A stretch of DNA of 64,000 bases from Candidatus Bruticola sp. (GTDB taxonomy: Bacteria; Vulcanimicrobiota; Xenobia; Xenobiales; Xenobiaceae), in contig JBJEGD010000013.1 of assembly GCA_051874735.1 (NCBI GenBank), positions 78,707 through 142,706 of the forward strand, read 5' to 3'. The notes beneath the pieces are model-generated. The model was given only the letters and a program-made list of their open reading frames with translations. It had not been told where the DNA came from and did no database searches. This document shows positions 12,466 through 59,859 of this stretch, piece by piece. The position numbers and the translations under genes are program-made. Numbering within the stretch: position 1 is the stretch's first letter; each line of letters starts with the position of its first letter.

Positions 12466-12681
12466 GATAAAATTTAATTTTTGCTTCAGCATTTTATAAA
12501 GCTGGCATATAAAAAGAGGTTGAAGTGTTAGCCGGAAAAAATATGTTGAACTGAACCGACCGGGTAGGCTACGCTTTCAAAAAAAGGAAGCCAGCTGTAC
12601 AGTGAGAAGTCTGTCCCCAATTTTGGAATGTTGGTGCAGTTTTAGTTGGGGGGCAGCAAGTTCGGAATTAAGGAGAAGTAT

Positions 12682-15276
12682 ATGGGGATGGAGCCGTTTT
12701 CGCATGAAGCTAGGGTGTCTATAGTTTATGCCCGTGAAGCAGCTAAATCTTTTGGAAGCAGTTATATCGGCCCAGAACATCTTTTAATGGGATTAGCAGC
12801 CAATGTCAGTTCCGAGGTAAGCGGTCTTCTGCAGAAGTACGGCATAACTTCAGAGCTTCTATATAATGAAGTATCCAAAGATTTGGGTGAGGCTTCGGCT
12901 TATCAGAGCATGATGTTTACTCAGTCTGCCAAAGAAGTCATTCAAGAAGCTTTTAAGTGCTCTCGTCGTTATGAAAGAAGTTCCGTAGGATGTGAAGCGC
13001 TCCTGTGGGCTATTTTGGAAGTTGCTGAAAATGGCGACAGCTCCTCGAAATCAGAAGTTATTTGTCGAATTTTAGGCAATTTTGATAAGGAGAATTTAGA
13101 GAACTTAAAAGAAGACGTCAAGTCTATTATAGCTGACAGTGACGAAAATGGGAAAGACAAGCGTTCTTCTAGTACGTCTGCATCAGGAAAGAGAGCTGCG
13201 GCTAGAACTCCTGTTTTAGACAGTTACTGCCGCGATCTTACCAAGTTGGCGCAAGAAGGCAAACTCGATCCTTTAGTAGGGCGTCACAACGAGCTGGAAC
13301 GCGTTATTATGGTTTTATCGCGCCGCAACAAGTGTAATCCGGTGCTGATAGGTGATCCTGGAGTGGGAAAAACGGCTATCGTAGAAGGTTTAGCGCAGCG
13401 GATTGTCAGCGGTGAAGTTCCGGATAAGCTCAGAGGTATGCGGGTCTGTTCTCTCTCCCTTTCCAGTGTAGTAGCCGGTACGCGTTACCGCGGAGATTTT
13501 GAAGATCGTCTGAACAAAATTCTCAAAGAGCTCACCGATACTAAATCTAAAGTTATTCTCTTTATCGATGAAATTCATGCATTAGTTGGGGCTGGTGACA
13601 GTGAGGGCGGTATCGACGCCTCTAGCATTCTCAAGCCGGCTTTGGCTCGCGGTGAATTCCAGTGTATTGGAGCTACAACTGTAGGCGAGTACACTAAATA
13701 TATTGAAAAAGATCCTGCTTTAGAGAGACGGTTTCAGACTGTTGATGTCAAAGAGCCGAGTGAGCAGGAAACTTGCAATATAATTTTCGGTCTGCGCGAT
13801 CGCTACGAAAGCTTCCACAATGTCGATATTTCAGAAGAAGCTGTGCGTGAGGCGGTGCGTTTGTCGAATCGTTATCTTCCCGATCGCCTTCTGCCCGATA
13901 AGGCTATCGATGTTATCGACGAGGCTTGCAGTCGCGTTAGTTTAGCCCGGGCTAACAAACCGAAGGAGCTTATTAGTAAGTCTGAAGAGGTGCGCGATTT
14001 GGTGCGTCGTCGTGATGAGGCTTTGGTTGAACAGGATTATGAATTAGCCGACGATCTTCGCTTAAAGGAAGAAAGCGCCCGTACGGTTTTAAACAGATTA
14101 GAAAACGATTGGCAGGAGCGTTTGGATTGCTCAGACTATATAAAGGGCAAACGGCCTGTGGTTAAAGCTGACAATGTGGCTTACGTTGTTTCCTTGATGT
14201 CCGGAGTTCCTTTAAATAATGTCACTCAAAATGAAGCTGCTCGTTTGAGCAACATTGAGCAGATATTACATGAGCGCGTGGTAGGGCAGGATGAGCCGAT
14301 TAAAGTAGTGAGTCGGGCTATTAAGAGGGCCAGGGCCGGATTAAAAGATCCTAATAAGCCTATCGGATCTTTTCTTTTCTTAGGCCCCACTGGTGTAGGT
14401 AAAACGGAGTTGGCCCGCACGTTGGCTCAATTCCTCTTCGATGATGAAAATGCGCTGATCCGTTTGGACATGTCGGAGTATTCTGAAAAATTCACAGTTT
14501 CTCGTCTCTACGGAGCCGCTCCTGGTTATGTAGGCTACGACGAAGGTGGGGAATTGACTGATGCCGTACGTCGCAAGCCTTATTCGGTAGTGCTTTTTGA
14601 TGAAATAGAAAAAGCTCACCCTGATATATTTAATGTGCTTTTACAGATTATGGATGAAGGACGTCTAACTGACTCTAAGCGTCATGTGGTAGACTTCAAG
14701 AATGTAGTCGTTATTCTCACTTCCAATATCGGATTTGCCAATCCCGATCCTAGTGCTAATATGGGACTGCGTGGCAACCGCGATGATGGTTCTCCTCAAG
14801 TTCGTTTTGAGCGCATGAGAAAGCGCGTTTTAGACGAAACTAAGCAGATATTTAAGCCTGAATTTTTGAACCGCCTCGATGCTTCTGTGGTCTTCCATAG
14901 TTTAGAAAGTGAAGATCTGCTTAAAATTGTCGATATTATGCTGGACAAAGTTCGCAAAGAATTATCGGCCAACCATCGCAGTTTTGAAGTTACCCAAGAT
15001 GTTAAAAGGGCTTTAGTGGCTTCGTGCCGCGAGCCTCAATATGGGGCCCGTCCTTTGCGTCGAGCTATTCAGCAGATGCTTGAAGATCCTCTGGCTGATA
15101 AAGTTATTGAAGGTGAGTTCCCTGAAGGTAGCTGTATGCTGATCGATTTGAGCGAAGAGGCGCGCATTGAGTTGACTACTCGCGAGGCCGAGGGGATGAT
15201 TTCTACGACGGGCAAGACCTCTGATAACGGCGAGGAGGAAACTTTCCGCTTTGTTTTCAAGTTATCTGAAGATTAG
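12682..15276 (+). CDS. clpC: ATP-dependent Clp protease ATP-binding subunit ClpC
   Basis: Clp N domain; D1 [14 protein letters not shown]; UVR-like middle domain ([10 protein letters not shown]); D2 [26 protein letters not shown]; AGGAG RBS before ATG 12682. Confidence 0.92.
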
Positions 15277-47265: not shown

Positions 47266-48735
47266 ATGATAGGTTCAATCAGTACCCCCAATTATAGTAA
47301 TTATAACATCCAGGGAGTTAGCGCCCCCAGAGCTAAGCAGGCCGAAACAATTGAATTCTCATACAACTCTCAGGATCAGTTGGTTAAGTCTGCCGGCACT
47401 ACCGAAGTAGACGGCGTCACTATTCGTAAAAATGTAAAGGGCGAGTCTAATATTTCCACCGAGCGCACTAAGCTCAGCACCGCTCTGAAAGCTAATGACG
47501 AAGGCACCTACGTTTACGATCAGAAAGCTAAACCCAAAGAGTTTACTTCTGCCCATGTATTTGCTACTGTTAACAACACTTTGCAAATGTTCCAAGATGC
47601 CTATGGCGAGAAGATTCCGTGGGCTCGTCCTGTTAGCCAAATGAAGATCGTCCCCGATGGCGGTGAAATGCTCAACGCTTATTACTCTCGTCGCGACGTC
47701 TCTGTAAACTTCTTCCACGCTGTCGATCCTACAACTAACGAAATGGTCTATTCTGGCCAGTCCGGTGAGGTCGTTTCCCACGAAGTCGGTCACGCCATGC
47801 TTGATGGTCTCCATCCCGAGTATCTGCAGGCTTGGAGTCCTGATCCCGGCGGGTTCCACGAGTCTTTTGCCGATATGACCGGTTTTATGATGGCTACTCA
47901 AGATGACGCCACTTGCGAGTTAGTAGCTCAGCAGACCGGCGGCGACCTCACCAAAGACAACAGTCTGTCTTTGACCGGTGAAGAGCTCGGTACCACTATC
48001 GGTCACGCCAGTGGTGACAGCAGCCGTAATAACATCCGCAACGCTAACAACAAATTTAAGTGGGTCGATCCTAAAACTCTGCCCGAAAATCCTCCCAAAG
48101 GCGGTCTGGGCACTGAAATGCATAGTTGGTCCCAGGTTTATACTGGAGCCATGTACGATGCCTTTACTACAATGGTGAAGCGCGGCATGGAGGAAGAGGG
48201 CCTGACTGCAGCTCAATCTATTAAAGACAGCGGTAAGCAGCTCATCGAACTGTATGCAGCCACTTTGAAAGACGCTCCTAAGGGCGATTTCACTTACAAG
48301 CAGATGGCTAATTGCATGTTGAAAGCCGATCGCGAATTGGGCGGCAAGAACCAGGAAGCTCTCCGCAACGCTTTTATTGGCCGCAATATTTTAGATGATA
48401 ACATGAGCATTAACGAAACTCCCGACTACGGTATGAGAAATACTCGTACTATGACCGTATCTTTAGACGGCGATTTCGGTATGTTCTCTGGTGCTAAGGT
48501 CGATACTTTAGTAGACGCAGACAAAATGTATGCTAGTGACTCTTCCCGTCCGGAAGCTACTAATCTCAAGCATGATATGAAGCGTTTAATCGACGCTGGT
48601 CGTATTCTGTATACTGAGCCCAATCAGAATATCCAGACTAAAGATCTTTTCGATAAGGATGGAGTTCCTTACGCTGGTGTAGTTCGCTGGATCGATGGTA
48701 ATATGACCATTGAGAGAAATACTATTATTAATTAG
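47266..48735 (+). CDS. Gluzincin metallopeptidase (M4/M36-like)
   Basis: NAYY, SHEVGH (HEXXH), HESFAD third ligand, EMHSWSQVY; GGAGG upstream. Confidence 0.8.
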   Translation: MIGSISTPNYSNYNIQGVSAPRAKQAETIEFSYNSQDQLVKSAGTTEVDGVTIRKNVKGESNISTERTKLSTALKANDEGTYVYDQKAKPKEFTSAHVFATVNNTLQMFQDAYGEKIPWARPVSQMKIVPDGGEMLNAYYSRRDVSVNFFHAVDPTTNEMVYSGQSGEVVSHEVGHAMLDGLHPEYLQAWSPDPGGFHESFADMTGFMMATQDDATCELVAQQTGGDLTKDNSLSLTGEELGTTIGHASGDSSRNNIRNANNKFKWVDPKTLPENPPKGGLGTEMHSWSQVYTGAMYDAFTTMVKRGMEEEGLTAAQSIKDSGKQLIELYAATLKDAPKGDFTYKQMANCMLKADRELGGKNQEALRNAFIGRNILDDNMSINETPDYGMRNTRTMTVSLDGDFGMFSGAKVDTLVDADKMYASDSSRPEATNLKHDMKRLIDAGRILYTEPNQNIQTKDLFDKDGVPYAGVVRWIDGNMTIERNTIIN

Positions 48736-48813: not shown

Positions 48814-48909
48814 ATTTTGCCGCTGATTATATAAATAAAAAAATCCCGTCCGCTTTTAGTAAGCAAACGGGATCGCTTCAGATTTTATGCCGTATTTTAT
48901 TGAGTTGAG

Positions 48910-51039
48910 TTATTTCTTCTTAATAAGTATATACTCATTCTGTTTAGTTTGGGGAGTATTGGCCGCTGGGCCATGATGAATTTTGCCTCCCTTCATAACT
49001 TCTAAGCAAGTTAACACTGATATGTAGTGGTTAGTTGCCATCCAGAGTGAGGATTCTGCCCAGGTTAAGGGTGTATTAATGCCGGGCAGATAAGCTTTGC
49101 CGGAATTGGGAGGCAGAGTACTGACGCACTGCCAGGCTTCGGGAACAGACCAAGCGGGAGCTACAGCTCCGTTAGCCTTAACAATGTCGGTTTCGGGAGT
49201 AATTCTGGCGTAAGCTCTGTTTATATTGCGGTTGGCTCCGGCCAAGCATTCTTTTATAAGAGCTTCTTCTTCAGCCGTAAGGGTAGGACGTCCGTTAGGT
49301 TTAGTTCTAGATGAAGCTTGATTACAGATCGCTCTAGCCTGTTCTGCATAACCGCGGGCCAGATCGGAGACTAAGAACCATTGGGCTTCGCAATTAGGAG
49401 CAGTTAACTTAGAGCGGGCCATAAAGACGTCGGCTGCGCTGGCGTCTTTAGAGCCGAACTCTTTAAGAATGTTAAGCCATTCAAAATTTATATGACCTTC
49501 AGGATCGCAGGCAATATTGTAGTTCAAGTTCAAGTAGCTGTCAGGAGATACGGCTTTAGAACCATCTTTTAAAGTCATATTAAAAGGAGCATAGCGCAGT
49601 GAACCATTATCTCTTACTAAAGCGTCTTCCAGCATTTTTAAGTTTTTGAGATGCTTGCGGACGCTCTTTAAGACGTCTGCATCGAGCATAACCTGAGTGG
49701 AGGAAAGCAAAGCTAAGGATATATCTTTTTCACGCTGACCCGGACTTTCTGCATAGTAAGTTTTTTGGACTCTGGTTAAGCCGCGCTGATAAGCTGCTTC
49801 AATATCGCTTCGGCGGCTGAAAATGTCGCCGTGTTTTTGGCAGCGCAGAGCTTTGCGCAGTTTCATTATGTCTTTATTCGAATTGTAGGCGGGGTTGTAC
49901 ATAATGTCGAGTACTTCGCCTAGAGCGTCGTTAATAGTTTGAGTGTCCCAGGTTAAGCCACCGGGAAAAGGTATCTCTTCCCAGTTGCCGGCTGAAGGAG
50001 CGGTGGAATAGTCTATGCTAACAAGATAGGCCGTCAAATTCGTTACCGCCTGTAAGAAAAGAGGAGAAGGATCTTTGATACCACGATCCCAGTGCTTTAT
50101 GCAGCCGTCGCGCAGAGCAGCCATAAAAGCTCTCAAGGCTAAACCGTGCGATTCTAGACGCTTGTTGTTAAACCATTGACTGTCGCGTTCTAAAGTGGCT
50201 GGATAAAAAATATGGGCCACACCTTCAACTGGTCCTCCTTCACGGTAAGAGGCCGGATCGGCTATCGCCTTATCGAAAGCGCGCTGCTCCGCTTTGCTGG
50301 TATAGAACTTAGCTAATGTATTTAAGGCTGTGGTCCAAGCCTTGGGATTGACATTAGTCTCTAAAAATCCGGCATAAATAGTGTCTGTGATCCAGGCACG
50401 TTCAGACATTTCCGGATTTTCACCTTCAGGTATATCACTAGTAGCAATTAAGCCGTTCTTTTCGTTAAGATTAATACGGAAGACATAATTACGGAGGGCT
50501 AAATCACGCAGTTGGCCTAAAGTAGTGCTGGTATACTCAGAACGCAGTTGTTTAAATATCGCGGAATTGTAGACTGGCACACTGTAATCGGGACCTTGAA
50601 AAGTTTGGTACTTGATATTGGTAGCAGCCCGCATAGTTTTTAAAGTATTTAGCAAACTGGAAACACTGCCCTCAATTTTGGCTAATCTGTCCCAACTCAG
50701 ACGGCAGTCTACTTTGCGGCTATTAGGGAGGTTGTCTAGATCGGGAACTTCTATACTGTCAGTGCCAAGCATGCAATTTAACTTGTCTATCCAGGCGGCG
50801 TCAGTAACTTGAAAATTTTTGCCTTCTTTATGCATTTTTTCCAGCTTGCTGATGCTTTCATCAACAAATTGGCTAATTTCCGCTGAAGAATAATTGGCGC
50901 GTTGGCCAGGCAGGGTAGAGAAGACTGGTGAAGCCGTCTGAGTTGTATCTGCAGAAGCAGAATCAACTGGACTAGCTAATACGGAGATAGGCCAACTGAG
51001 CAAACAAGCTAGAGCTAAAAGATGGGCGGTAAATTTCAT
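48910..51039 (-). CDS. Secreted six-hairpin glycosidase-like protein (GH15 / phosphorylase-kinase-regulatory-like)
   Basis: Sec signal MKFTAHLLALACLLSWPISVLA; AWITD (WxRD-like), AGNWEE, VPEAW and TPLTWAES motifs. Confidence 0.62.
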   Translation of the reverse strand: MKFTAHLLALACLLSWPISVLASPVDSASADTTQTASPVFSTLPGQRANYSSAEISQFVDESISKLEKMHKEGKNFQVTDAAWIDKLNCMLGTDSIEVPDLDNLPNSRKVDCRLSWDRLAKIEGSVSSLLNTLKTMRAATNIKYQTFQGPDYSVPVYNSAIFKQLRSEYTSTTLGQLRDLALRNYVFRINLNEKNGLIATSDIPEGENPEMSERAWITDTIYAGFLETNVNPKAWTTALNTLAKFYTSKAEQRAFDKAIADPASYREGGPVEGVAHIFYPATLERDSQWFNNKRLESHGLALRAFMAALRDGCIKHWDRGIKDPSPLFLQAVTNLTAYLVSIDYSTAPSAGNWEEIPFPGGLTWDTQTINDALGEVLDIMYNPAYNSNKDIMKLRKALRCQKHGDIFSRRSDIEAAYQRGLTRVQKTYYAESPGQREKDISLALLSSTQVMLDADVLKSVRKHLKNLKMLEDALVRDNGSLRYAPFNMTLKDGSKAVSPDSYLNLNYNIACDPEGHINFEWLNILKEFGSKDASAADVFMARSKLTAPNCEAQWFLVSDLARGYAEQARAICNQASSRTKPNGRPTLTAEEEALIKECLAGANRNINRAYARITPETDIVKANGAVAPAWSVPEAWQCVSTLPPNSGKAYLPGINTPLTWAESSLWMATNHYISVLTCLEVMKGGKIHHGPAANTPQTKQNEYILIKKK

Positions 51040-51130: not shown

Positions 51131-52570
51131 TTAACTATTTTTGTTGTTTTTAGGCAGTATAGATATAGAAATCTGCTTATCTTCCTCAGATAAGACTATA
51201 CTGTCTCCTCGGTTGGCGGTATGCTCCAGGATAGCTTTAGCCACGAAGCTGCCAATCTCTCTAGAGAAGAGGCGGCGCAGCGAAGTCGCTCCATGGCCTA
51301 CTTCTTCGCTCTTCTTAATAAGATAGAACTTAACCGCTTCGTTTATATTGATATTGAGATTATGCTCACGTTTCAGCTCTTTAGACAGCTCTTCTATCCA
51401 GGTATCCAGAAGTTTAAGTAGGCCTTTATCGCTGATAGGCGGGAAGAACACAGTTTCGTCGGCCAAACTGATGGTATCAGGACGCAAAACTGTCTCTATA
51501 TCTGGCATAAGCAGGCGATCGTACTGATCTTGGGAGTCTTCTTCTTTATCTTTGTTTCGGCGGAACCCCATATTGGCGTTTTTGAAAAACTCGGCGTCCA
51601 TAGATATGGAGAGGATAATAATGTGATCGCGGAAGTCCAGACGTCTGCCGCTGCTGGTCATGAAATGACCTTTCTCCAAAATTTGGTGGATACACTCCAT
51701 AACTTTAGGATGAGCTTGCTCCACGCCCTCTATATAAATAACTCCGAAGGGAAATTCGCGATTTAGTATTCCCAGCAACGATTCTTGCCCGCTGCTACCT
51801 ATAAATTGAGCTGCTCTTCCTTCTTCACTGAAGTCGGCTAGGTCGAGGCGGTAGACTCGATCTAAATCATTGAAAAGAAATTTGGCTAAATTGCGAGCTA
51901 AAGTCATGCGCCCAGAACCGCGCGGTCCAATAAATAGGAAACTGGCAATAGGACGGCTACTACCTAAGAAGCCGGCCCAAGAGCGAGTTAAAGTATCGAC
52001 AATTCGGGTAATGGTAGACTCTGTAACAACTACATTTTTCTTTAGCTCTTCTCCGCATTCAGACAGACGGCGGCGCCACTTGTTATTCTTGCTGCCACTA
52101 CTGCCTTTGCTGCGGAAGGATAAAACTTCAGGACGTCTGGTTGTCGGTTCAGCTAAAAGGTCTTCTATATCAGAGCACCAGCTCTTCGCTTCATCTTCAT
52201 CTTTGACTAGAACTTGAGCTGCTTCACAGCTAAATTCATCCAAAATAGCCCAAAGCAGATGAAGAGTTCCTACTGGTTTATTGTAAGTTTGGGCTAAATC
52301 TTCGGCGTTATGAAATAACATTATGTTGCGCAGACTCCTAGGAGGATCTTCCTGTTTTTTAGAGCCTTTGCCCAGTAGTTCGGCTATTTGTTTGTATACT
52401 TTAGAATAGCTGATTCCTTTTTTGCGCAGAAAGTTGGCCGCCTGACTATCTCTAGTAGACAAGATGGCTAGCAGCAAATGTTCGGCAGTTACGAACATAT
52501 GTCTGAGTTTCATAGCCTCTTGTTTTGATGCAACTTTTACTTTTTCTAAATTGCTTGTATAAAGTTTCAT
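51131..52570 (-). CDS. Degenerate Clp AAA+ protein (Clp-N plus a single D2-like module)
   Basis: EHLLLAIL and LHLLWAIL N-repeats; RPIASFLFIGPRGSGRMT; AHPKV; RRLDFRD; no D1; start set at ATG 52570. Confidence 0.82.
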   Translation of the reverse strand: MKLYTSNLEKVKVASKQEAMKLRHMFVTAEHLLLAILSTRDSQAANFLRKKGISYSKVYKQIAELLGKGSKKQEDPPRSLRNIMLFHNAEDLAQTYNKPVGTLHLLWAILDEFSCEAAQVLVKDEDEAKSWCSDIEDLLAEPTTRRPEVLSFRSKGSSGSKNNKWRRRLSECGEELKKNVVVTESTITRIVDTLTRSWAGFLGSSRPIASFLFIGPRGSGRMTLARNLAKFLFNDLDRVYRLDLADFSEEGRAAQFIGSSGQESLLGILNREFPFGVIYIEGVEQAHPKVMECIHQILEKGHFMTSSGRRLDFRDHIIILSISMDAEFFKNANMGFRRNKDKEEDSQDQYDRLLMPDIETVLRPDTISLADETVFFPPISDKGLLKLLDTWIEELSKELKREHNLNININEAVKFYLIKKSEEVGHGATSLRRLFSREIGSFVAKAILEHTANRGDSIVLSEEDKQISISILPKNNKNS

Positions 52571-52596
52571 AAGTTTCCCTTTTCCTATAGACAGAC

Positions 52597-54624
52597 TTAA
52601 GAGTCGAGCAACCAAGCCTTTATAGCTTGACGGGCGTTAGAACAAAGGGACAGGTTTGGAGTAGACCAAACTGACTGAGGTATATGCTCCATCTCAGCAT
52701 TTATGGAACGGGGTAAAATAAGGCGTTTCCATCGTACTCCGGATTCATACATGCGCTGTAGTCCTGAGGCCAGTTGAGTAGAACTGTAAATTCGTCCCTG
52801 CAAGTCGATCCGTCCTCCTACTACACAGAGATTACCTCCGGAAGAACCGGTAAGAGCGCTAACCATAGCCAGAAGGAAAGCTAAGCCAAGTTCCTCACTA
52901 CTGCTAAAACTGTTTTCATCTAATTTGTATGTACCTAAATACTCGGAGAGTGTGTTAAGTTTTTTGTTGATATCAAAACTAATATCTCGGATATGAATGT
53001 GAATATCATAGCTATTAGGATCGGGCAATCCTAAAGATCTGGCCTCAGAGCGCAAATAGGTCCAGGCAATCTCCATAGCTGAGGCTACACTTTCAGTACC
53101 GGTAATCTTGATGTTGCCGCTGCCTTCCATTGATCTGGCACTTATGCCCAGGGCTATTATAGGAAATGATGAAGGGGGAACCGCAATAATCTCGCTGCTA
53201 AAAGGCTCCTCTTCCTGGGGGGTCAAAGACTGAATTTGAATACGGGCTAAACGATATTTAAGAGTTTGGTCGCTCTTTTTGTACAGGATGGCCAACTGAT
53301 TCCATATATCAATATTTTTGGTCTGTTTGCCTAATAACCCCACAGCATATTCTAAAATTTTGATGGCGTCTTCGTGCTTTTTTTGCTGCGACATTATCTT
53401 AGACTTGCCTAGGTAAACTTCCGGAATATCTATATCAGGGTAAGCTGCATCTAGTTTTTGCCAAGATTCTAGGGCTTTATCGTATTCACCGCTGTCACAG
53501 AGCAAATCTGCTTCTAAAGAAGTGCGGGCTACAGCTGCTGTTATTTCATCTTGGCTCGGCGTCTTTAGATTGTCATCTTCTTCACTGTCATTTTTTAGAC
53601 TGTCATCTTCTTCATTATCATCTTCTTCAGATTCACTTTGGGCAGTACTGCCTAGTTCTGCTCTCTTTTCAAACTCGTAAAATCTTACTGCTGCGTCAAT
53701 TTGACCAATTCCCAGCAGACAGCGGGCTAACATGCGGAGCAGAGAGGGAGGAGTGTCTTTGGCAATACTATCAGGCACCATGTTCGTAAAGATTTCGACG
53801 GCGCCTGCGTAGTCTTCTTGTTCCATTTTGATAGAGATCATCTCTTCAAAAATTAGGAAAGGATTAAGTTTGTGTAACTGCAGAATGCACAGAAAACATA
53901 GACTTAGAGCTTTGTCGTAGTTCTTTTGAATATGAGCTATACGGGCTCTCATTAGCATGGCACTCTCGCTTGACCAATCTAAGGCGAAGCGGTATTCTCG
54001 CCACGTTCCTTCGGAATCTAGTTCTAAAACTTTTTCAAATTCTGAATCAGCACTATCAAAGTGGGCTATGCGCATGTACAGCAATCCCATTAGATAGCGC
54101 ATAGGTAGACTATCGTACTCTGCTTCTAAAGCATTGCTGGCTAATTGTAGTAAAGATGTCTCTTCGTCGATAGCGTTGTCACCTAAAACAAATGATAGCA
54201 GAGCCAAAGAGGCGAGCAATTCAGGATCATCAGGATTTTGTTCTAGGCGCTTTTTGTACATTGAGCGCAACAAAAACAAGTCTACCGCCATATTCTCTTG
54301 GGCTAAGATAGCCCCCCAACGGTCCAGGGGATAGCTGGTTACTCTATCTGTTTGAGCCCATTGAGTGTACGCGGTAATCGCTTCACTTATTTGATTCCCT
54401 TTTTTATTTATATAACCGGACCATTCGTATACTAAAGAGCGAAAGTAGGAATTAGGATCTAACTCGGCGGCTCTATTGAATGCTTTGAAAGCCCCGTCAG
54501 TGTCGCCATTACGCAGACAGGCTTCACCTATGCTGATATGAAGATCAACATTGTTAGGCTCGCGATGGGAGCGCTCCAAAAGCTGTTCTGCGTACTGACG
54601 GGAAGTTAACTTTTTACTACTCAC
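52597..54624 (-). CDS. TPR protein with a C-terminal degenerate Lon (S16)-like domain
   Basis: Several TPRs (AFKAFNRAAELDP, FEKVLELD); C-terminal GSGNIKITG, AWTYLR, DIHIH, LAMVSALTG, GRIDLQGRI, LILP. Confidence 0.72.
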   Translation of the reverse strand: MSSKKLTSRQYAEQLLERSHREPNNVDLHISIGEACLRNGDTDGAFKAFNRAAELDPNSYFRSLVYEWSGYINKKGNQISEAITAYTQWAQTDRVTSYPLDRWGAILAQENMAVDLFLLRSMYKKRLEQNPDDPELLASLALLSFVLGDNAIDEETSLLQLASNALEAEYDSLPMRYLMGLLYMRIAHFDSADSEFEKVLELDSEGTWREYRFALDWSSESAMLMRARIAHIQKNYDKALSLCFLCILQLHKLNPFLIFEEMISIKMEQEDYAGAVEIFTNMVPDSIAKDTPPSLLRMLARCLLGIGQIDAAVRFYEFEKRAELGSTAQSESEEDDNEEDDSLKNDSEEDDNLKTPSQDEITAAVARTSLEADLLCDSGEYDKALESWQKLDAAYPDIDIPEVYLGKSKIMSQQKKHEDAIKILEYAVGLLGKQTKNIDIWNQLAILYKKSDQTLKYRLARIQIQSLTPQEEEPFSSEIIAVPPSSFPIIALGISARSMEGSGNIKITGTESVASAMEIAWTYLRSEARSLGLPDPNSYDIHIHIRDISFDINKKLNTLSEYLGTYKLDENSFSSSEELGLAFLLAMVSALTGSSGGNLCVVGGRIDLQGRIYSSTQLASGLQRMYESGVRWKRLILPRSINAEMEHIPQSVWSTPNLSLCSNARQAIKAWLLDS

Positions 54625-54721
54625 AGGGCTAAGTTTCTATATCCGATCGCTTGAACCTTTGCCATAATAGACACGATAATCAGGAAAATAATTTAATTGT
54701 ATATAAAAGTACTTATGGACG

Positions 54722-56038
54722 TCAGCTGCCGCTGGAAGTTGCCTTTTTTTCGTCTTCTTTATCTTGACTGTCGTCATCATTAGGCAGAGGACGCGGGGAC
54801 CAAACGTAGACGCATTTAGGAGAACGCAAACCAAAAGTAGGTTCTTGGCTATCGTAAGTTTCCCAAGAATTGGCCTGTTTAGGATCGAGGCATACTATAC
54901 GGTCATTGCCCGTATCGGCAATATAAATTTTGCTACCATCCTCACTAGAACTTAGTCCCTTGGGCTCTAAAAATTGAAAAGCACCTCGCCCATAGGAGCC
55001 TATTTCCACATGATTTTTGCCTCTAAAGTTATCGGCTTTCACTAAACGTTGGTTGGCTATATCTACGAAGAAAACACCGTCGTCAGTTTTTACAAATTGG
55101 GTTGGAGTGAAGGCTGCTCCGCTGAGATTTTGGCCACGGTAAACTTGCCAAGTGCTGGGCAAAGCGGTAAGATCGAAGGGAATACGCACAATCTGCCCCT
55201 TCATAGTGCCTTCTCCGCAGCAAACATAGAGGTTGCCATCCATATCGAGCCATAAATAACCTGGTTTGTTTATTTTGCTGTCTTTAAGCTCAGCCATAGG
55301 TTCTGTATCGCCGAATTTTTCGTATACTAAAATGCGGTTGTTTTCAGTATCGGAAATATACAGACGCTTACCGTGAAAAGCTACGCCTTTGGGGCCTTTG
55401 AAGCCATTGTCCATTTCTGTCCAGCCCAAACCGCGAATATCATCTATGCGGATAATGCGGTTATTGCCTCGATCGGCGATGTAAACTTTACCAGTGACAT
55501 CGACCCAAATTTGCTCTGGATTGAGAAAACGCCCTAAGCCACTGCCGCTAAGTCCTAAAGGATAAAAATCTTCGCCCTGAATGTTCTTCATGTATACTAT
55601 GCGTCCGTTGCCAGTATCTGAGATCCAGATACCACTTAACCGCTTGTAATCTTCAGGATTAGAAGATTGCAGCATAGTAAAGCGCGGCTTTTTTTTCATT
55701 TCTAGATCGATAGTTTTAACTTTGCCTTTTTGCAATTCTGCGTTGAGGTCTTGCAGACTTTTAACGCTTTCATTATCTGTTGCCGTTTTTGTGTCTGTAC
55801 TGGCAGCTGGCGCAGCAGGGGACTCTTCTGTCGTTTCACTATTGGTTTGCTCTGGTGAAGCTGCTTCAGTGGCTGTATCTGCCTCTGCTGCTGATGTACT
55901 TTCTGCTGGAGGAACCGAAACTGTTACTTCAGATGGCTGCTGAGCCTGAACGGGCCAGGCTGAAAGTCCGAAAATCGCACAACACAGCGCTGCTTTGGTA
56001 AAAGCATGTATTATTGTCGTTTTGTAGTTAGTTTGCAA
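54722..56038 (-). CDS. Secreted NHL-repeat beta-propeller protein
   Basis: Signal peptide (...LSAWPVQA); low-complexity A/T/E/S linker; repeats ISDTGNGRI, IADRGNNRI, ISDTENNRI, IADTGNDRI. Confidence 0.85.
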   Translation of the reverse strand: MQTNYKTTIIHAFTKAALCCAIFGLSAWPVQAQQPSEVTVSVPPAESTSAAEADTATEAASPEQTNSETTEESPAAPAASTDTKTATDNESVKSLQDLNAELQKGKVKTIDLEMKKKPRFTMLQSSNPEDYKRLSGIWISDTGNGRIVYMKNIQGEDFYPLGLSGSGLGRFLNPEQIWVDVTGKVYIADRGNNRIIRIDDIRGLGWTEMDNGFKGPKGVAFHGKRLYISDTENNRILVYEKFGDTEPMAELKDSKINKPGYLWLDMDGNLYVCCGEGTMKGQIVRIPFDLTALPSTWQVYRGQNLSGAAFTPTQFVKTDDGVFFVDIANQRLVKADNFRGKNHVEIGSYGRGAFQFLEPKGLSSSEDGSKIYIADTGNDRIVCLDPKQANSWETYDSQEPTFGLRSPKCVYVWSPRPLPNDDDSQDKEDEKKATSSGS

Positions 56039-56470: not shown

Positions 56471-57493
56471 ATGGAAATTCTCGATGTTCTGCGCAGTAAG
56501 GCTTCAGCTAATCGACGTCATATTGTGCTGCCTGAGGGAAAAGATGACAGAACTTTGCAGGCGGCCCGTATGGTTACCGATCGCGGTTACGCTAAAGTTA
56601 CGGTTATCGGCCAGCCTGAAGAAGTACGCGCCCGCGCTGCAGAACTTGGGTTCTCTCTTGAAGATGTAGAAGTTTTAGATCATAAAGCTGCTGACGATTT
56701 CGAAGAATACGCCAATGCCTATTACGAGCTGCGCAAAGCTAAAGGTATGACTCCTGAAGAAGCTCGTGAAGCTATGGCTGACCCCCTCTACTATGCCAAT
56801 ATGATGGTGCGTTCCGGTAAAGCTGACGGCACTGTGGCTGGAGCTACCAACACTACTGCTCATACTGTGCGTGCAGCTTTGAAGTGCTTGGGTGTGCAGC
56901 CTGGCCTTAAGACCGTTTCTAGTTTCTTCTTGATGGTTGTGCCTAACAAAGCTTTCGGTGAAAATGGAGCCATGATTTTTGCTGACTGCGGTGTGGTGAT
57001 CGACCCTGATCCTCTGCAGTTGGCTGAAATTGCTTTGACCACTGCCGATTCTTGCCGCCTGTTCTTGGAAGCTGAGCCCCGCATGGCCATGTTGAGCTTC
57101 AGTACTAAAGGCAGCGCTAAACATGAAAAGATTGATAAAGTAACTGAGGCTTTGAGCATTGTCAAAGCTCGTCGTCCCGATTTGAATGTCGACGGTGAAA
57201 TGCAAGTCGATGCCGCTCTGATCCCCAGAATTGGCCAGTCTAAAGCTCCCGGCTCTCCCGTCGCCGGTCGAGCTAACGTGCTGATTTTCCCCGACATCCA
57301 GTCTGGCAACATCGGCTATAAGTTAGCTGAGCGTATGTCCGGCGGTGTGGCTATAGGTCCGATTCTGCAGGGCTTCGATTATGCTTCTAACGATCTCTCT
57401 CGCGGTTGCAAAGCTGAGGATATTGTGGATACAGTGGTTATAACAGCTTTGCAGTCTATCGACTGCGAGCGCCGCAAAGCTGAAAGAGCTTAA
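56471..57493 (+). CDS. pta: Phosphate acetyltransferase
   Basis: [41 protein letters not shown] and DLSRGC motifs; GAGGTG RBS. Confidence 0.95.
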
Positions 57494-57735: not shown

Positions 57736-59859
57736 TTATTCTTCGTAGCCGTAATTACGCCCATCGCCCAACCAGCCAGTTTTGTCCTGGTTGGAATCAT
57801 CTTGACGTTTAACCGGAGAGATAGAAGGCAAGCCGGGGAAGGGATGAACCTTAATTGAACGAGAGGAGGGGCTCCCTAAATAGCCCTCTTGCTCAGCCGC
57901 CTGTGCTGCTTCTATAGCGGCAATGTCGGGAAGACCGGTACCGCTCTCTGCCAACTGAAGCTCCTCAGCACTGAGCTTAGAAGCAATGCGCTCTAAGAAA
58001 CGTTTTACAACTGGAGTCGCTAAGTTGAGTGGCTCAAGAGTAACAAACTTCTTGTAACCGGAGTAGGCTCTGATCATATCGCCCTTGTGCTCGGCTAGAA
58101 TGGCTAAGCCACGAACAGCAGTGGCGTTCATGGCGTCGTATTTGACGGCCTGAGCGTAAGCGTGTTCTGCTTCTGAATCGCGGTGAGCCAGGGAACAAGT
58201 ATCGCCCAGCAGAGCCCAGAGCACGGAAGAAGCGGGAGCACATCCAGTTTGATGCTCAGCTGATTGGCGCACTTCTTCAGCTAAAGCGGCCGCTTCTTTG
58301 ACTCGTTTGAGCAACAGAAGGAGCTTAACTTTACGGAAAACGCAATGAATGGAGTCGGGATAAAACTCGCAGATCTCGTCCATAGCCTGCAAAGCAGCTT
58401 CGAAATTGCTCTGCTTCATGTAGGCTGTAGCTAAAGCAACGGCGAGATTGGTGTGTACTTCTTCGGTAGCGTAGTTGCAATTCAACCCGTCGCGAGCAGC
58501 TTGAATAGCCTGAGTCCAGTTACCTTGACGAACCCAATATTCAGCCAAGCCCAAATGGCATTTCGCATCGCGGGGGGACTGGGTTACCGACTTAATATAA
58601 AGCATTTGAGCTTCAGGAATTTGGCCGGTCGCTTCCATAATAGGAGCTATTACAGAGGCGTTGTTTTCCTCATCGGTCATGTAAATGGCCAACGCCTCAT
58701 CATACATGCCAAGTTTGAAGTACAGCTCTGCCAAAGCTTTTTCGATGACGCGCCGAATCGACTTGCGCTCGTTGGGATCTTCAACAATGTCCCGGTAGTA
58801 GTCGATGGCATTTTGGGCCTCGCCGCGGCGGACATAAAGACGTCCGAGCTCCCAAAGGGCCTGGGCATTTTTTGAATCAGCGGAGAGGGCGTCTTTTAAG
58901 GTGACGATAGCATCATCGAAGAGACCTGCCTGGATCTGCTGAGTAGCCAATAAGTTCCAGATACGTTGATTAGTGCGATCTTTGGCTACTTGACTTTGAA
59001 GTTCGGCGATAAACTCTGAACTGAGACGTGACCAATGCTGCTGCAGGCCTAACTGAGCATAAACGCGCAGAAGCTCAACCTTCCACATCAAAATGTTGCG
59101 GTGAGTCGGATTAGTTCTTATAGCCTGTTCATAGGCGCCGCGTGATTCAGTGTAGTTCTTGGTTCGGTAAGCTAAGCGGGCTGCTGCTTCAAGCAGGCTG
59201 GCATTGCTGTCATGGTGCATGAGAGCTCTGGCCACCAGGTGCAGACCCATTTGCTGCAACTTAGAACGCTGATCGGGCTTGAGACCTTTGCCAAGCATTT
59301 CTTCAAAGAAAGTGGCGCCCAGAGGGCAATCCTCTTCGTCGCGCAATTCGATCAAACGGAGATAACTCTTTTCAGCAGTCGGCAGATCGTAAGCGCGAGC
59401 AGCTGTGGCCGCTAAACGTCTGACGGAATCGGGGTCGTCGGGCTGTCTGTCGAGCACCCACTGACGCAGTTCCTGAGCTTTAGCATAAGCGCCTTTTCCT
59501 TCTAAAACGTCTGCCAGTTTGACGGCAAAGAAGACGTCGGGGCAATTCTCCATGGCGTCTTCCAGGGCTTGCTGCATAGCATTGTTGTCGTTCTGTTTGC
59601 GCAATATGCTGATCTTGCGCTTATGCAGTTCCGGATCTTCCGGATTCTGCAGCAATTCTTGATTGACTTCTTCGAGAGCTTCATCGAGAGGCTCATTAAT
59701 ATCACCAAAAACAGGCTTGCCGAGACGGCCTGCCTTGGCCTGGCCTTCATTGGAACTTTGTTTGCGTACTAGGCCTTTGCCTTGATCAGTCGCTGACTGA
59801 TCTTTGCCCGGCATAGCCGGTTTAAATTGTTTGCTGGAACCAAACTTTGGAGTCATCAC
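57736..59859 (-). CDS. Multi-TPR protein
   Basis: 707 aa with many TPR-like helix pairs, disordered termini and no signal peptide; GAGGAG RBS. Confidence 0.85.
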   Translation of the reverse strand: MMTPKFGSSKQFKPAMPGKDQSATDQGKGLVRKQSSNEGQAKAGRLGKPVFGDINEPLDEALEEVNQELLQNPEDPELHKRKISILRKQNDNNAMQQALEDAMENCPDVFFAVKLADVLEGKGAYAKAQELRQWVLDRQPDDPDSVRRLAATAARAYDLPTAEKSYLRLIELRDEEDCPLGATFFEEMLGKGLKPDQRSKLQQMGLHLVARALMHHDSNASLLEAAARLAYRTKNYTESRGAYEQAIRTNPTHRNILMWKVELLRVYAQLGLQQHWSRLSSEFIAELQSQVAKDRTNQRIWNLLATQQIQAGLFDDAIVTLKDALSADSKNAQALWELGRLYVRRGEAQNAIDYYRDIVEDPNERKSIRRVIEKALAELYFKLGMYDEALAIYMTDEENNASVIAPIMEATGQIPEAQMLYIKSVTQSPRDAKCHLGLAEYWVRQGNWTQAIQAARDGLNCNYATEEVHTNLAVALATAYMKQSNFEAALQAMDEICEFYPDSIHCVFRKVKLLLLLKRVKEAAALAEEVRQSAEHQTGCAPASSVLWALLGDTCSLAHRDSEAEHAYAQAVKYDAMNATAVRGLAILAEHKGDMIRAYSGYKKFVTLEPLNLATPVVKRFLERIASKLSAEELQLAESGTGLPDIAAIEAAQAAEQEGYLGSPSSRSIKVHPFPGLPSISPVKRQDDSNQDKTGWLGDGRNYGYEE

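What the first reader, a model, noticed from the sequence alone, without database searches (positions are those of the whole stretch)
51131..54624. Adjacent pseudo-Lon (TPR fusion) and ATPase-dead Clp genes: candidate undescribed pseudoenzyme proteolysis-control module
Seen: two co-oriented genes under 30 bp apart. The first is a TPR array fused to a Lon-protease-like domain: the scaffold motifs remain (GSGNIKITG, DIHIH, LAMVSALTG, GRIDLQGRI, LILP), but PKDGPSAG and the catalytic-Lys segment are not recognisable. The second is a Clp-N plus D2-only protein with its ATPase motifs broken. Established: Lon needs a Ser-Lys dyad; Clp unfoldases need Walker A Lys, Walker B DE, a pore loop and an Arg finger. 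Inference: two long intact ORFs that have lost catalytic residues but kept their folds suggest selection for a non-catalytic role, such as a ring-forming scaffold, adaptor or inhibitor that uses TPRs to capture substrates. I know of no described system with this pairing.
Basis: partly seen in the sequence, partly recalled or inferred. Interest (0 to 1): 0.8.

Follow-up and report, generated by a model that had tools for sequence, protein, structure and literature searches.

The report
Conserved pseudo-Lon and pseudo-Clp gene pair
Two neighbouring genes in an uncultured gut bacterium encode catalytically dead copies of a Lon protease domain and a Clp unfoldase ring that have stayed together under strong selection, are predicted to bind each other, and keep the short loop that Clp unfoldases use to dock on the ClpP protease.

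Summary
On the minus strand, 52597-54624 encodes a 675-aa TPR protein ending in a LonA-type protease fold. The catalytic Ser is Glu and the catalytic Lys is Leu. After 26 nt, 51131-52570 encodes a 479-aa Clp_N + ClpC-D2 protein. It lacks D1, the pore loop, the Walker B Glu, the Arg finger and the sensor-2 Arg, and in this genome the Walker A Lys is Arg.

This is not decay. The pair is adjacent and co-oriented in 33 of 33 genomes inspected, all of one order (class Xenobia, Vulcanimicrobiota), often with 4-nt start/stop overlaps. It was not found elsewhere in the phylum. dN/dS is 0.02-0.05 for both genes.

A complex prediction places the conserved N-terminal TPR domain on the pseudo-Clp N-domain (ipSAE 0.78, best control 0.00). 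The pseudo-Clp also keeps an invariant G-[F/L]-R island in a disordered loop, matching the ClpP-docking loop of this lineage's own ClpC.

My best reading (0.45) is a non-catalytic heteromer that docks on ClpP as a cap or regulator. ClpP binding was not tested. Four of my five literature searches looked for such a pair and found no description. Interest 0.62; new variant of a known kind.

The parts
52597..54624 (-). TPR-pseudoLon gene (675 aa, GTG start, TAA stop)
   Evidence: ORF. Pfam finds TPR families plus Lon_C. Orthologues at 25-71% identity are aligned in A5.
53875..54624 (-). Conserved N-terminal TPR domain (residues 1-250), predicted to bind the pseudo-Clp N-domain
   Evidence: Holds 30 of the protein's 34 invariant columns. 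Supplies all confident contacts in the complex prediction, ipSAE 0.78 against 0.00 for the best control.
53308..53874 (-). Variable middle TPR region with an acidic low-complexity stretch (residues 330-341 at 53602-53637)
   Evidence: Poorly conserved and rich in insertions and deletions in A5. Positions.
52600..53307 (-). LonA-type protease-fold domain without the Ser-Lys dyad (residues 440-675; Ser-equivalent E578 within 52885-52899; Lys-equivalent L618 within 52762-52779)
   Evidence: Family profile without the genome's own Lon matches LonA 7p6u at E=4.7e-20. Model and Foldseek results. Residue mapping.
52571..52596 (-). 26-nt intergenic spacer with ribosome-binding site AGGAAAAGGG
   Evidence: Read directly from the sequence.
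51131..52570 (-). Pseudo-Clp gene (479 aa): Clp_N, linker, ClpC-type D2, D2-small
   Evidence: Pfam and NCBIfam. Model and Foldseek. Orthologues at 31-85% identity aligned in A4.
52151..52570 (-). Clp_N domain (residues 1-140), including the family motif PPRSLR (residues 76-81, 52328-52345) at the predicted interface
   Evidence: Pfam Clp_N covers residues 31-82. Interface residues are 1-9, 22-29, 64-70, 77-87 and 114-116.
51902..51928 (-). Degenerate Walker A, GPRGSGRMT (Lys -> Arg, Thr -> Met)
51716..51742 (-). Degenerate Walker B, VIYIEGVEQ (DE -> EG)
51557..51574 (-). Retained ClpP-docking-type loop NMGFRR (residues 333-338). G335 and R337 are invariant and F336 is 88% conserved.
   Evidence: The loop is disordered in the model (pLDDT below 50 for residues 333-344).
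54696..54725 (-). Promoter-like site upstream of the pair (consensus match only)
   Evidence: The number of sites found is no higher than in shuffled sequence, so this is weak.
48910..51039 (-). Co-oriented downstream gene (709 aa, signal peptide, possibly GH15-like). May be co-transcribed here; it is not part of the conserved pair.
   Evidence: No terminator-like site lies between it and the pseudo-Clp gene. A 14-pair hairpin at 48842-48874 follows it.

Best explanation
The two genes encode an obligate, non-catalytic two-protein complex. It was built from a ClpC fragment (N-domain plus the D2 ring module) and a LonA protease domain fused to TPR repeats.

Shown:
- Both folds are intact and both catalytic centres are gone in every orthologue examined.
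- The genes are always adjacent and often translationally coupled.
- Both evolve under strong purifying selection.

Predicted: the conserved N-terminal TPR domain clamps the pseudo-Clp N-domain, in the way adaptors hold ClpC N-domains.

Inferred: the pseudo-Clp has lost everything needed to hydrolyse ATP and thread a polypeptide. It keeps the flexible x-G-[F/L]-R loop that this lineage's real ClpC uses to dock in the hydrophobic sites of ClpP. I therefore infer that the complex sits on ClpP as a motor-less cap. It could compete with ClpC and ClpX for ClpP faces (a brake). It could instead open the ClpP gate without ATP for unstructured clients brought in by the TPR and pseudo-Lon part (an activator).

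The dead Lon domain most likely serves as an oligomerisation ring, as dead Lon-like domains do in RadA, ComM and BrxL.
For: Catalytic residues are lost across the family:
- Lon Ser column is E, D or another residue, and the Lys column is L, A or V, in all 20 family rows. No invariant Ser, Lys, His or Asp exists in the domain.
- Walker B Glu is absent in 31 of 31 genomes where it can be read.
- Pore loop, Arg finger and sensor-2 Arg are absent in 20 of 20 orthologues.

Folds are kept.

The pair behaves as a unit:
- Adjacent and co-oriented in 33 of 33 genomes inspected. With longest-ORF starts, six of 21 loci overlap by 4 nt, four have no gap, four have gaps of 22-49 nt, and seven give larger negative values because the pseudo-Clp ORF start is over-extended. 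Refined starts were computed for 16 of the 21 loci, including five of those seven.
- Neighbouring genes are reshuffled around it.

Selection: dN/dS is 0.022-0.036 for pseudo-Clp and 0.018-0.053 for TPR-Lon, over 15 pairs each with dS 0.11-1.02.

Binding: complex prediction gave ipSAE 0.78 (runs 0.78, 0.79, 0.77), with the best of 3 controls at 0.00. That mark was reached by 58 of 80 solved complexes and 2 of 110 mismatched pairs. The runs agree in at least 86% of contacts and the partner pLDDT is at least 75. The interface joins TPR residues 5-11, 27-40, 64-75 and 202-208 to Clp_N residues 1-9, 22-29, 64-70 and 77-87. I recall no solved TPR:Clp_N complex, so a pass from memory seems unlikely (recalled, not searched).

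ClpP loop:
- G-[F/L]-R is present in 31 of 31 readable genomes.
- G335 is 100% conserved, F336 88% and R337 100%, inside a loop whose other positions are 6-35% conserved and which is disordered in the model.
- The genome's own ClpC reads MGLRG. Five ClpC-type chains from five relatives read [L/I]-G-[F/L]-R. The ClpB-type chains in the same output lack the loop, and two further Hsp100 paralogs read LGFR and LGLR.
- The genome's own ClpB also lacks the loop.
- IGF-type loops dock in ClpP H sites, and occupying those sites activates ClpP (PMC9035409, passages read).
- The genome encodes two ClpP genes.

Precedent for dead Lon-like domains as ring scaffolds: PMC11612176 and PMC10164562 (passages read).
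Against: - ClpP binding was not tested. My single complex job went to the pair itself.
- The G-F-R island could dock on another partner, for example the pseudo-Lon ring.
- ClpP docking needs several loops from an oligomer. Loss of the Arg finger and sensor-2 Arg, and of the P-loop Lys in this genus, might weaken hexamer formation.
- The complex prediction gave no confident contact for the Lon-like domain, so its role is unexplained.
- That job used three chains and my own alignments, unlike the tool's calibration.
- Interface residues are only mildly enriched for conservation on the TPR side (10 of 35 against 33 of 215) and not at all on the pseudo-Clp side (3 of 31 against 18 of 109).
- ClpP copy number does not track the pair. 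Genus g8 lacks the pair but has 2-3 ClpP matches.
- No expression data are available.
Confidence: 0.45

Rival explanations
1. A ClpP-independent 'split pseudo-Lon'. The dead Lon ring and the dead D2 ring stack into a two-tier hexamer like LonA. This would act as a passive scaffold, holdase or sequestering cage. By analogy with RadA, ComM and BrxL it could instead be a ring that binds nucleic acid. The TPR arms would recruit clients.
For: - The Lon-like domain is closest to LonA (E=4.7e-20).
- Clp D2 and Lon AAA+ modules belong to the same AAA+ clade (established knowledge, recalled).
- Dead Lon-like domains act as oligomerisation scaffolds in RadA and ComM (PMC11612176) and in BrxL (PMC10164562).
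- Strict pairing and translational coupling.
Against: - No confident contact between the Lon-like domain and D2, although only a 1:1:1 assembly was modelled.
- It does not explain why the ClpP-type G-F-R loop is the one invariant island in D2.
- In all three precedents the dead Lon domain is fused to an active ATPase. Here no motor is present.
Confidence: 0.25
2. A decoy or buffer for the ClpC system. The pseudo-Clp N-domain, held by the TPR protein, would soak up ClpC adaptors, tagged substrates or N-domain ligands. Alternatively pseudo-Clp subunits would mix into ClpC assemblies and tune real ClpC activity. The mycobacterial N-domain-only paralog ClpC2 is said to protect ClpC1 in a similar way (recalled, no call).
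For: - The N-domain is retained and conserved: E30, H31, L33, L105, L106 and W107 are invariant.
- A canonical ClpC lies in the same genome and window, at 12646-15276.
- The predicted interface uses the helix-1 and helix-5 face of the N-domain. As I recall, ClpC1-binding antibiotics and adaptors bind that face.
Against: - A decoy would not need 340 residues of conserved D2 and D2-small, nor the G-F-R loop.
- If the prediction is right, the N-domain groove is already occupied by the TPR partner.
- A single-ring protein would fit poorly into a two-tier ClpC hexamer.
Confidence: 0.15
3. Cryptic enzymes. One or both proteins would keep activity through non-canonical residues. Examples are ATP turnover with the E-D Walker B in lineages that keep GKTT, or a different nucleophile in the Lon fold.
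For: - Walker A is canonical (GKTT) in the five f2 genomes and in one of two g9 genomes; the second g9 copy is cut by its contig end before Walker A. The Lys is kept in 24 of 32 genomes.
- An acidic pair (E-D) remains at Walker B in most lineages.
- g7 orthologues carry a Ser in the catalytic-Ser column.
Against: - No Lys partner exists in any orthologue, and no invariant polar residue exists in the Lon-like domain.
- Arg finger, sensor-2 Arg and pore loop are absent everywhere.
- This genus replaced the P-loop Lys and still keeps dN/dS near 0.03. The selected function therefore does not depend on that Lys.
Confidence: 0.07
4. Neutrally decaying duplicates of ClpC and Lon with no function.
For: Catalytic residues are lost.
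Against: - The ORFs are intact in 33 genomes, down to roughly 25-35% identity with this copy.
- dN/dS is 0.02-0.05.
- Synteny is strict.
- Family-specific invariant motifs exist.
Confidence: 0.02

Closest known systems
ClpC (class I Clp/Hsp100 unfoldase) and its ClpP-docking D2 ring
   Same: - It has a Clp_N domain, a D2 large and small fold, and a ClpP-type x-G-[F/L]-R loop identical in pattern to this lineage's own ClpC.
- Among the genome's own Hsp100 proteins, ClpC is the closest at 29% identity, against 26% and 25% for the others.
   Different: - It has no D1 ring and no M-domain.
- The pore loop is deleted.
- The Walker B Glu, Arg finger and sensor-2 Arg are lost in all orthologues.
- It cannot be a motor.
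LonA protease domain (MEROPS S16)
   Same: - The fold is the same (Foldseek E=7.6e-15, TM by target 0.77-0.79).
- The family profile matches LonA at E=4.7e-20, better than BrxL (2.3e-8), the LonB-type 1xhk (0.0023) or RadA (0.6).
   Different: - The Ser-Lys dyad is absent.
- An insertion of about 20-25 residues precedes the Ser-equivalent position.
- The domain is not fused to an AAA+ module. It is fused to about 440 residues of TPR.
Dead Lon-like domains of RadA, ComM and BrxL
   Same: These also have a Lon protease fold without a protease motif, and use it as a ring or oligomerisation scaffold (PMC11612176 and PMC10164562, passages read). A ComM gene also exists in this genome.
   Different: - Those domains are fused to active ATPases and act on DNA.
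- Sequence similarity here is much weaker to them than to LonA.
- PADLOC gives only a domain-level BrxL match (8.3e-11) and no defence-system context.
Clp N-domain adaptors (MecA, ClpS, McsB) and N-domain-only Clp paralogs (mycobacterial ClpC2, plastid ClpT); all recalled, not tested by any search
   Same: It works alike in one respect: a partner protein holds a Clp N-domain (predicted here). They are also non-catalytic, Clp-derived accessory proteins.
   Different: - The TPR fold is unrelated to MecA or ClpS, and Pfam found no such family.
- The N-domain-only paralogs lack D2 and the ClpP loop.
ATP-independent proteasome activators (PA28/11S, PA200, mycobacterial Bpa/PafE); recalled, a functional analogy only
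   Same: If the activator reading is right, both are motor-less rings that dock on a self-compartmentalised peptidase through short motifs and open its gate.
   Different: There is no homology. The peptidase is ClpP rather than the 20S proteasome, and the activity is untested.

Membership tests
Lon protease (S16) | Lon_C proteolytic-domain fold | tested here: met
   Pfam Lon_C at E=4.7e-9. Family profile against LonA structures at E=4.7e-20. Foldseek at E=7.6e-15.
Lon protease (S16) | Catalytic Ser-Lys dyad | tested here: not met
   Ser -> E578 and Lys -> L618 in this copy. No orthologue has both residues, and the Lys column is L, A or V in all.
Lon protease (S16) | AAA+ module in the same polypeptide (LonA, LonB) | tested here: not met
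   Only TPR families lie upstream of the Lon_C domain.
Clp/Hsp100 unfoldase (ClpC type) | Clp_N domain and D2 AAA+ large and small fold | tested here: met
   Pfam Clp_N, AAA_2 and ClpB_D2-small. Foldseek to ClpC and ClpB, with TM by target 0.86-0.87 for NBD2.
Clp/Hsp100 unfoldase (ClpC type) | Two AAA+ rings (D1 and D2) with an M-domain | tested here: not met
   D1 and the M-domain are missing relative to full-length ClpC in alignment A1.
Clp/Hsp100 unfoldase (ClpC type) | Walker A Lys, Walker B Asp-Glu, Arg finger, sensor-2 Arg | tested here: not met
   Walker B Glu is absent in 31 of 31 genomes. Arg finger and sensor-2 Arg are absent in 20 of 20. Walker A Lys is Arg in this copy and kept in 24 of 32.
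Clp/Hsp100 unfoldase (ClpC type) | Aromatic pore loop (GYVG) | tested here: not met
   Deleted or replaced in 20 of 20 orthologues.
Clp/Hsp100 unfoldase (ClpC type) | ClpP-docking [I/L/V/M]-G-[F/L] loop | tested here: met
   Sequence motif present in 31 of 31 genomes. It matches the lineage's ClpC loop. Actual ClpP binding cannot be tested with these tools.
RadA / ComM / BrxL-type dead Lon-like domain | Lon-like domain fused to an active RecA-like or AAA+ ATPase that acts on DNA | tested here: not met
   There is no ATPase in the same chain. The partner AAA+ is itself dead. Similarity to BrxL and RadA is weaker than to LonA.
Known anti-phage defence systems (PADLOC) | Full-length match to a system component, with system neighbours | tested here: not met
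   Only a domain-level BrxL match (38.9 bits) and weak AAA matches. The neighbours give nothing.

The most novel reading that the evidence does not exclude
The pair is the first natural protein-based, ATP-independent cap for ClpP. A ring of motor-less ClpC-D2 modules would dock through its G-F-R loops and open or occupy the ClpP gate. The TPR and pseudo-Lon partner, clamped to its N-domains, would act as a dedicated client receptor. That would be the bacterial ClpP counterpart of the PA28 and Bpa activators of the proteasome, and a natural analogue of acyldepsipeptide activation.
Probability: 0.2. Interest if true: 0.85.

Novelty: new variant of a known kind. Interest (0 to 1): 0.62.

Why it matters
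Every ClpP partner I know of from bacteria is an ATP-driven unfoldase. Small molecules that occupy the same docking sites (ADEPs) deregulate ClpP (PMC9035409).

A conserved, strongly selected ClpC derivative has discarded its motor but kept the docking loop, and it has acquired a dedicated partner made from a dead Lon domain. This would be a natural experiment in regulating ClpP without ATP.

It would also be a rare case of two pseudoenzymes from the two main bacterial AAA+ protease families co-opted into one complex.

It is directly testable by heterologous expression, although the host lineage (animal-gut Xenobia) is uncultured.

Even if ClpP is not the target, the pair defines a new lineage-specific protein complex, with a predicted TPR:Clp_N interface that can be mutated and tested.

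Tried and rejected
- **Contaminated profile.** The first profile search against solved structures used alignment A2, which contained the genome's own canonical Lon as one row. Its E-values of about 1e-34 are inflated and I do not use them. I repeated the search with A3, without that row.
- **dN/dS against the window's own copy.** dS was saturated (1.5 or higher, or not computable). I used six closer genomes of the same genus instead.
- **ClpP copy number as a phyletic test.** Genomes with and without the pair both show 1-3 ClpP matches, so this is uninformative.
- **Expression.** No RNA holder was listed. One DNA run held a small share (0.12) of the words. I did not lay reads.
- **PADLOC.** No defence-system membership.
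- **Literature.** Four searches looked for the pair or its parts and found nothing on such a pair or on motor-less ClpP caps of this kind: Xenobia / Eremiobacterota; pseudoprotease / Lon / TPR; pseudo-ATPase / ClpP / ClpC; ATP-independent ClpP activator / IGF loop. A fifth search (RadA / Lon protease-like domain) looked only for precedents.
- **Fused forms.** None of the roughly 27 full-profile family representatives exceeds 792 aa, and none of the 33 genomes has a fusion. I did not run the 'longer' search of the search for homologous proteins, so fused forms elsewhere are not excluded.
- **Alternative catalytic residues in the Lon fold.** No invariant polar column exists.

Full report
**What is there**

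On the minus strand, ORF 52597-54624 (675 aa) is followed after 26 nt and a ribosome-binding site by ORF 51131-52570 (479 aa).

Pfam sees TPR repeats plus a C-terminal Lon_C domain in the first protein. In the second it sees Clp_N, AAA_2 and ClpB_D2-small. NCBIfam places the second protein nearest the D2 half of ClpB, ClpA and ClpV, far below their cut-offs.

The window is contig C13:78707-142706 of a 2.47-Mb, 92%-complete genome. The closest database proteins are labelled Candidatus Bruticola and Candidatus Xenobium. That places it in family Xenobiaceae, class Xenobia, phylum Vulcanimicrobiota, formerly Eremiobacterota.

**Are the enzymes really dead?**

Yes.

I aligned the family to the genome's own LonA (contig C5). 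The catalytic Ser column of GPSAG is E578 in this copy. It is E, D or another residue in relatives, and one genus has a Ser there. The catalytic Lys column is L618 here and L, A or V in every orthologue. The Lon-like domain has no invariant polar column at all.

I also aligned 20 orthologues to the genome's own ClpC, ClpB and a third Hsp100:
- The Walker B Glu, the GYVG pore loop, the Arg finger and the sensor-2 Arg are missing in all 20.
- Over all genomes where the motifs can be read, Walker B lacks the Glu in 31 of 31.
- The Walker A Lys is Arg in 8 genomes, all in this genus, and is kept in 24 of 32. The five f2 genomes and one g9 genome read a canonical GKTT.

So hydrolysis and threading are lost throughout the family. 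Nucleotide binding may survive outside this genus.

**Are the folds kept?**

Yes.
- A family profile without the genome's own Lon matches LonA structures (7p6u, E=4.7e-20). This is ahead of BrxL (2.3e-8), a LonB-type domain (0.0023) and RadA (0.6).
- An earlier search included the genome's own Lon in the profile, and I discard it.
- The AlphaFold model of residues 440-675 (pLDDT 81.7) was built with alignment A2, which still contains the genome's own Lon as one row. It matches the E. coli Lon proteolytic domain (E=7.6e-15, TM by target 0.77).
- The pseudo-Clp model (pLDDT 80.9) matches ClpC and ClpB chains, and ClpB NBD2 with TM by target 0.86-0.87.

**Is it decay or function?**

It is function.

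*Distribution*
- The Lon-like domain profile finds the family in 34 of 151 genomes sampled across the phylum, counting this one. All 34 are in one order: family f1 18 of 18, f2 5 of 5, f3 10 of 16. Within f3, genus g7 has 8 of 8, g9 2 of 2 and g8 0 of 6.
- It was found in none of five other genomes of the same class, and in none of the rest of the phylum.
- Three g8 genomes, and one genome from another family of the same class, have only full-length Hsp100 proteins as their best pseudo-Clp matches.
- In 1.84 billion representative proteins there are about 27 full-profile family members of 544-792 aa. Scores then drop sharply to ordinary Lon.

*Pairing*
- In 33 of 33 genomes inspected, the pseudo-Clp gene lies directly downstream on the same strand. 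One further hit, in G032, was not inspected.
- With longest-ORF starts, six of 21 loci overlap by 4 nt, four have no gap, four have gaps of 22-49 nt, and seven give larger negative values that reflect over-extended ORF starts. I refined the pseudo-Clp start for 16 of the 21 loci, five of those seven among them.
- The neighbouring genes are often nearby but in changing order and orientation. Among 20 extended loci, a 707-aa TPR protein appears in 11, pta in 14 and an NHL-repeat protein in 13. Only the pair is constant.

*Selection*
- Among six genomes of the same genus, dN/dS is 0.022-0.036 for pseudo-Clp and 0.018-0.053 for TPR-Lon. That is 15 pairs each, with dS 0.11-1.02.
- Comparisons with the window's own copy were saturated.

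**Do the two proteins bind?**

I gave one complex job three chains: TPR-Lon residues 1-250, TPR-Lon residues 440-675, and the whole pseudo-Clp as the partner. Each came with a 17-row alignment.
- The score was ipSAE 0.78 (runs 0.78, 0.79, 0.77), and the best of three controls was 0.00.
- That mark was reached by 58 of 80 solved complexes and by 2 of 110 mismatched pairs.
- The runs agree in at least 86% of contacts, and the partner pLDDT is at least 75.
- The tool notes that its counts hold only roughly here, because I used my own alignments and three chains.

All confident contacts join the N-terminal TPR domain to the Clp_N domain. The lowest-error pairs involve TPR residues G33, E34, L37 and W68, which are invariant in the family. 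On the other side they involve pseudo-Clp residues 24-28 and 78-83, part of the family motif PPRSLR.

Conservation at the interface is only modestly raised on the TPR side (10 of 35 residues at 90% identity or more, against 33 of 215 elsewhere). It is not raised on the pseudo-Clp side (3 of 31 against 18 of 109). The Lon-like domain made no confident contact.

The model supports binding. It does not show it.

**The functional clue**

In a protein where every motor element has decayed, one short element has not. Residues 333-338 read NMGFRR.
- Across 17 orthologues, G335 is 100% conserved, F336 88% and R337 100%. The flanking loop positions are 6-35% conserved.
- The loop is disordered in the model (pLDDT below 50 for residues 333-344).
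- G-[F/L]-R is present in 31 of 31 readable genomes.
- It aligns with the ClpP-docking loop of the genome's own ClpC (MGLRG). Five ClpC-type chains from relatives read [L/I]-G-[F/L]-R. The ClpB-type chains in the same output lack the loop, and two further Hsp100 paralogs read LGFR and LGLR.
- The genome's own ClpB, which does not use ClpP, has no such loop.

IGF-type loops dock in hydrophobic H sites on ClpP, and occupying those sites by small molecules activates ClpP (PMC9035409, passages read). The genome has two ClpP genes that are 74% identical.

**Mechanism I commit to (0.45)**

The pair forms a non-catalytic heteromer. The TPR domain clamps the pseudo-Clp N-domain. The pseudo-Clp docks on ClpP by its G-F-R loops as a motor-less cap, acting either as a brake or as an ATP-independent gate opener. 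The dead Lon domain provides oligomerisation, as in RadA, ComM and BrxL (PMC11612176 and PMC10164562, passages read).

How far each step is established:
- Shown: loss of catalysis, kept folds, pairing, selection.
- Predicted: the TPR:Clp_N interface.
- Inferred: ClpP docking, oligomeric state and the direction of the effect.

Against this reading:
- ClpP binding is untested.
- Oligomerisation may suffer without the Arg finger.
- The role of the Lon-like domain is unexplained.
- ClpP copy number does not follow the pair.

Rivals:
- A ClpP-independent split pseudo-Lon scaffold (0.25).
- A decoy for the ClpC system (0.15).
- Cryptic enzymatic activity (0.07).
- Neutral decay (0.02).

**Comparison and novelty**

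The pair is neither a Lon protease nor a Clp unfoldase, because defining catalytic features were tested and not met. It is derived from both.

It resembles dead Lon-like scaffolds, but those are fused to live ATPases. It resembles N-domain-only Clp paralogs (recalled, not tested), but those lack D2 and the ClpP loop.

Four literature searches for such a pair found no description. A fifth sought only precedents for dead Lon-like domains.

I rate it a new variant of a known kind, with interest 0.62.

Noticed in passing
window 12646-15276 (+): A canonical ClpC-type Hsp100 (876 aa) with intact Walker motifs, a GYVG pore loop and an MGLRG ClpP loop lies about 36 kb from the pair in the same window. 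The genome also has a ClpB (C13:47297-49933) and a third Hsp100.
   Followed up: partly
window 48910-51039 (-): A 709-aa protein with an N-terminal signal peptide and no Pfam or NCBIfam match. The language-model atlas points to GH15-like glycoside hydrolases (score 0.95, 29 of 30 hits; a lead only). It directly follows the pseudo-Clp gene on the same strand with no terminator-like site between them. This arrangement recurs in five of the 20 extended loci, all in family f1 (genera g1 and g4). A 14-pair hairpin follows it at 48842-48874.
   Followed up: partly
window 57736-59859 (-): A 707-aa TPR protein is more conserved than the pair itself (53-94% identity). It lies within a few kb of the pair in 11 of 20 extended loci. 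In four f2 loci (L032, L036-L038) it lies upstream of TPR-Lon on the same strand, about 320-340 nt away. It could be a third component; this was not tested.
   Followed up: partly
window 54722-56038 (-) and 56471-57493 (+): A secreted NHL-repeat beta-propeller protein and phosphate acetyltransferase (pta) are frequent neighbours of the pair, in 13 and 14 of 20 loci. Their order and strand change between lineages.
   Followed up: partly
G000:C6:52264-55701 (-): The third Hsp100 paralog is 1145 aa. It has a long C-terminal tail of Pro/Gly/Tyr/Gln-rich repeats (PGGY and QRPVGPGAN units) that contains a run of unknown bases.
   Followed up: no
window 47266-48735 (+): A 489-aa protein carries an HExxH motif and has only a faint thermolysin-like (M4) match (E=0.055). 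A relative (locus L027) carries two copies side by side.
   Followed up: no
window 51902-51928 (-) and loci L006-L012: The Walker A Lys-to-Arg change is confined to a subclade of this genus (8 genomes). Purifying selection stays just as strong there. This suggests that nucleotide chemistry at that Lys is dispensable for the selected function.
   Followed up: yes
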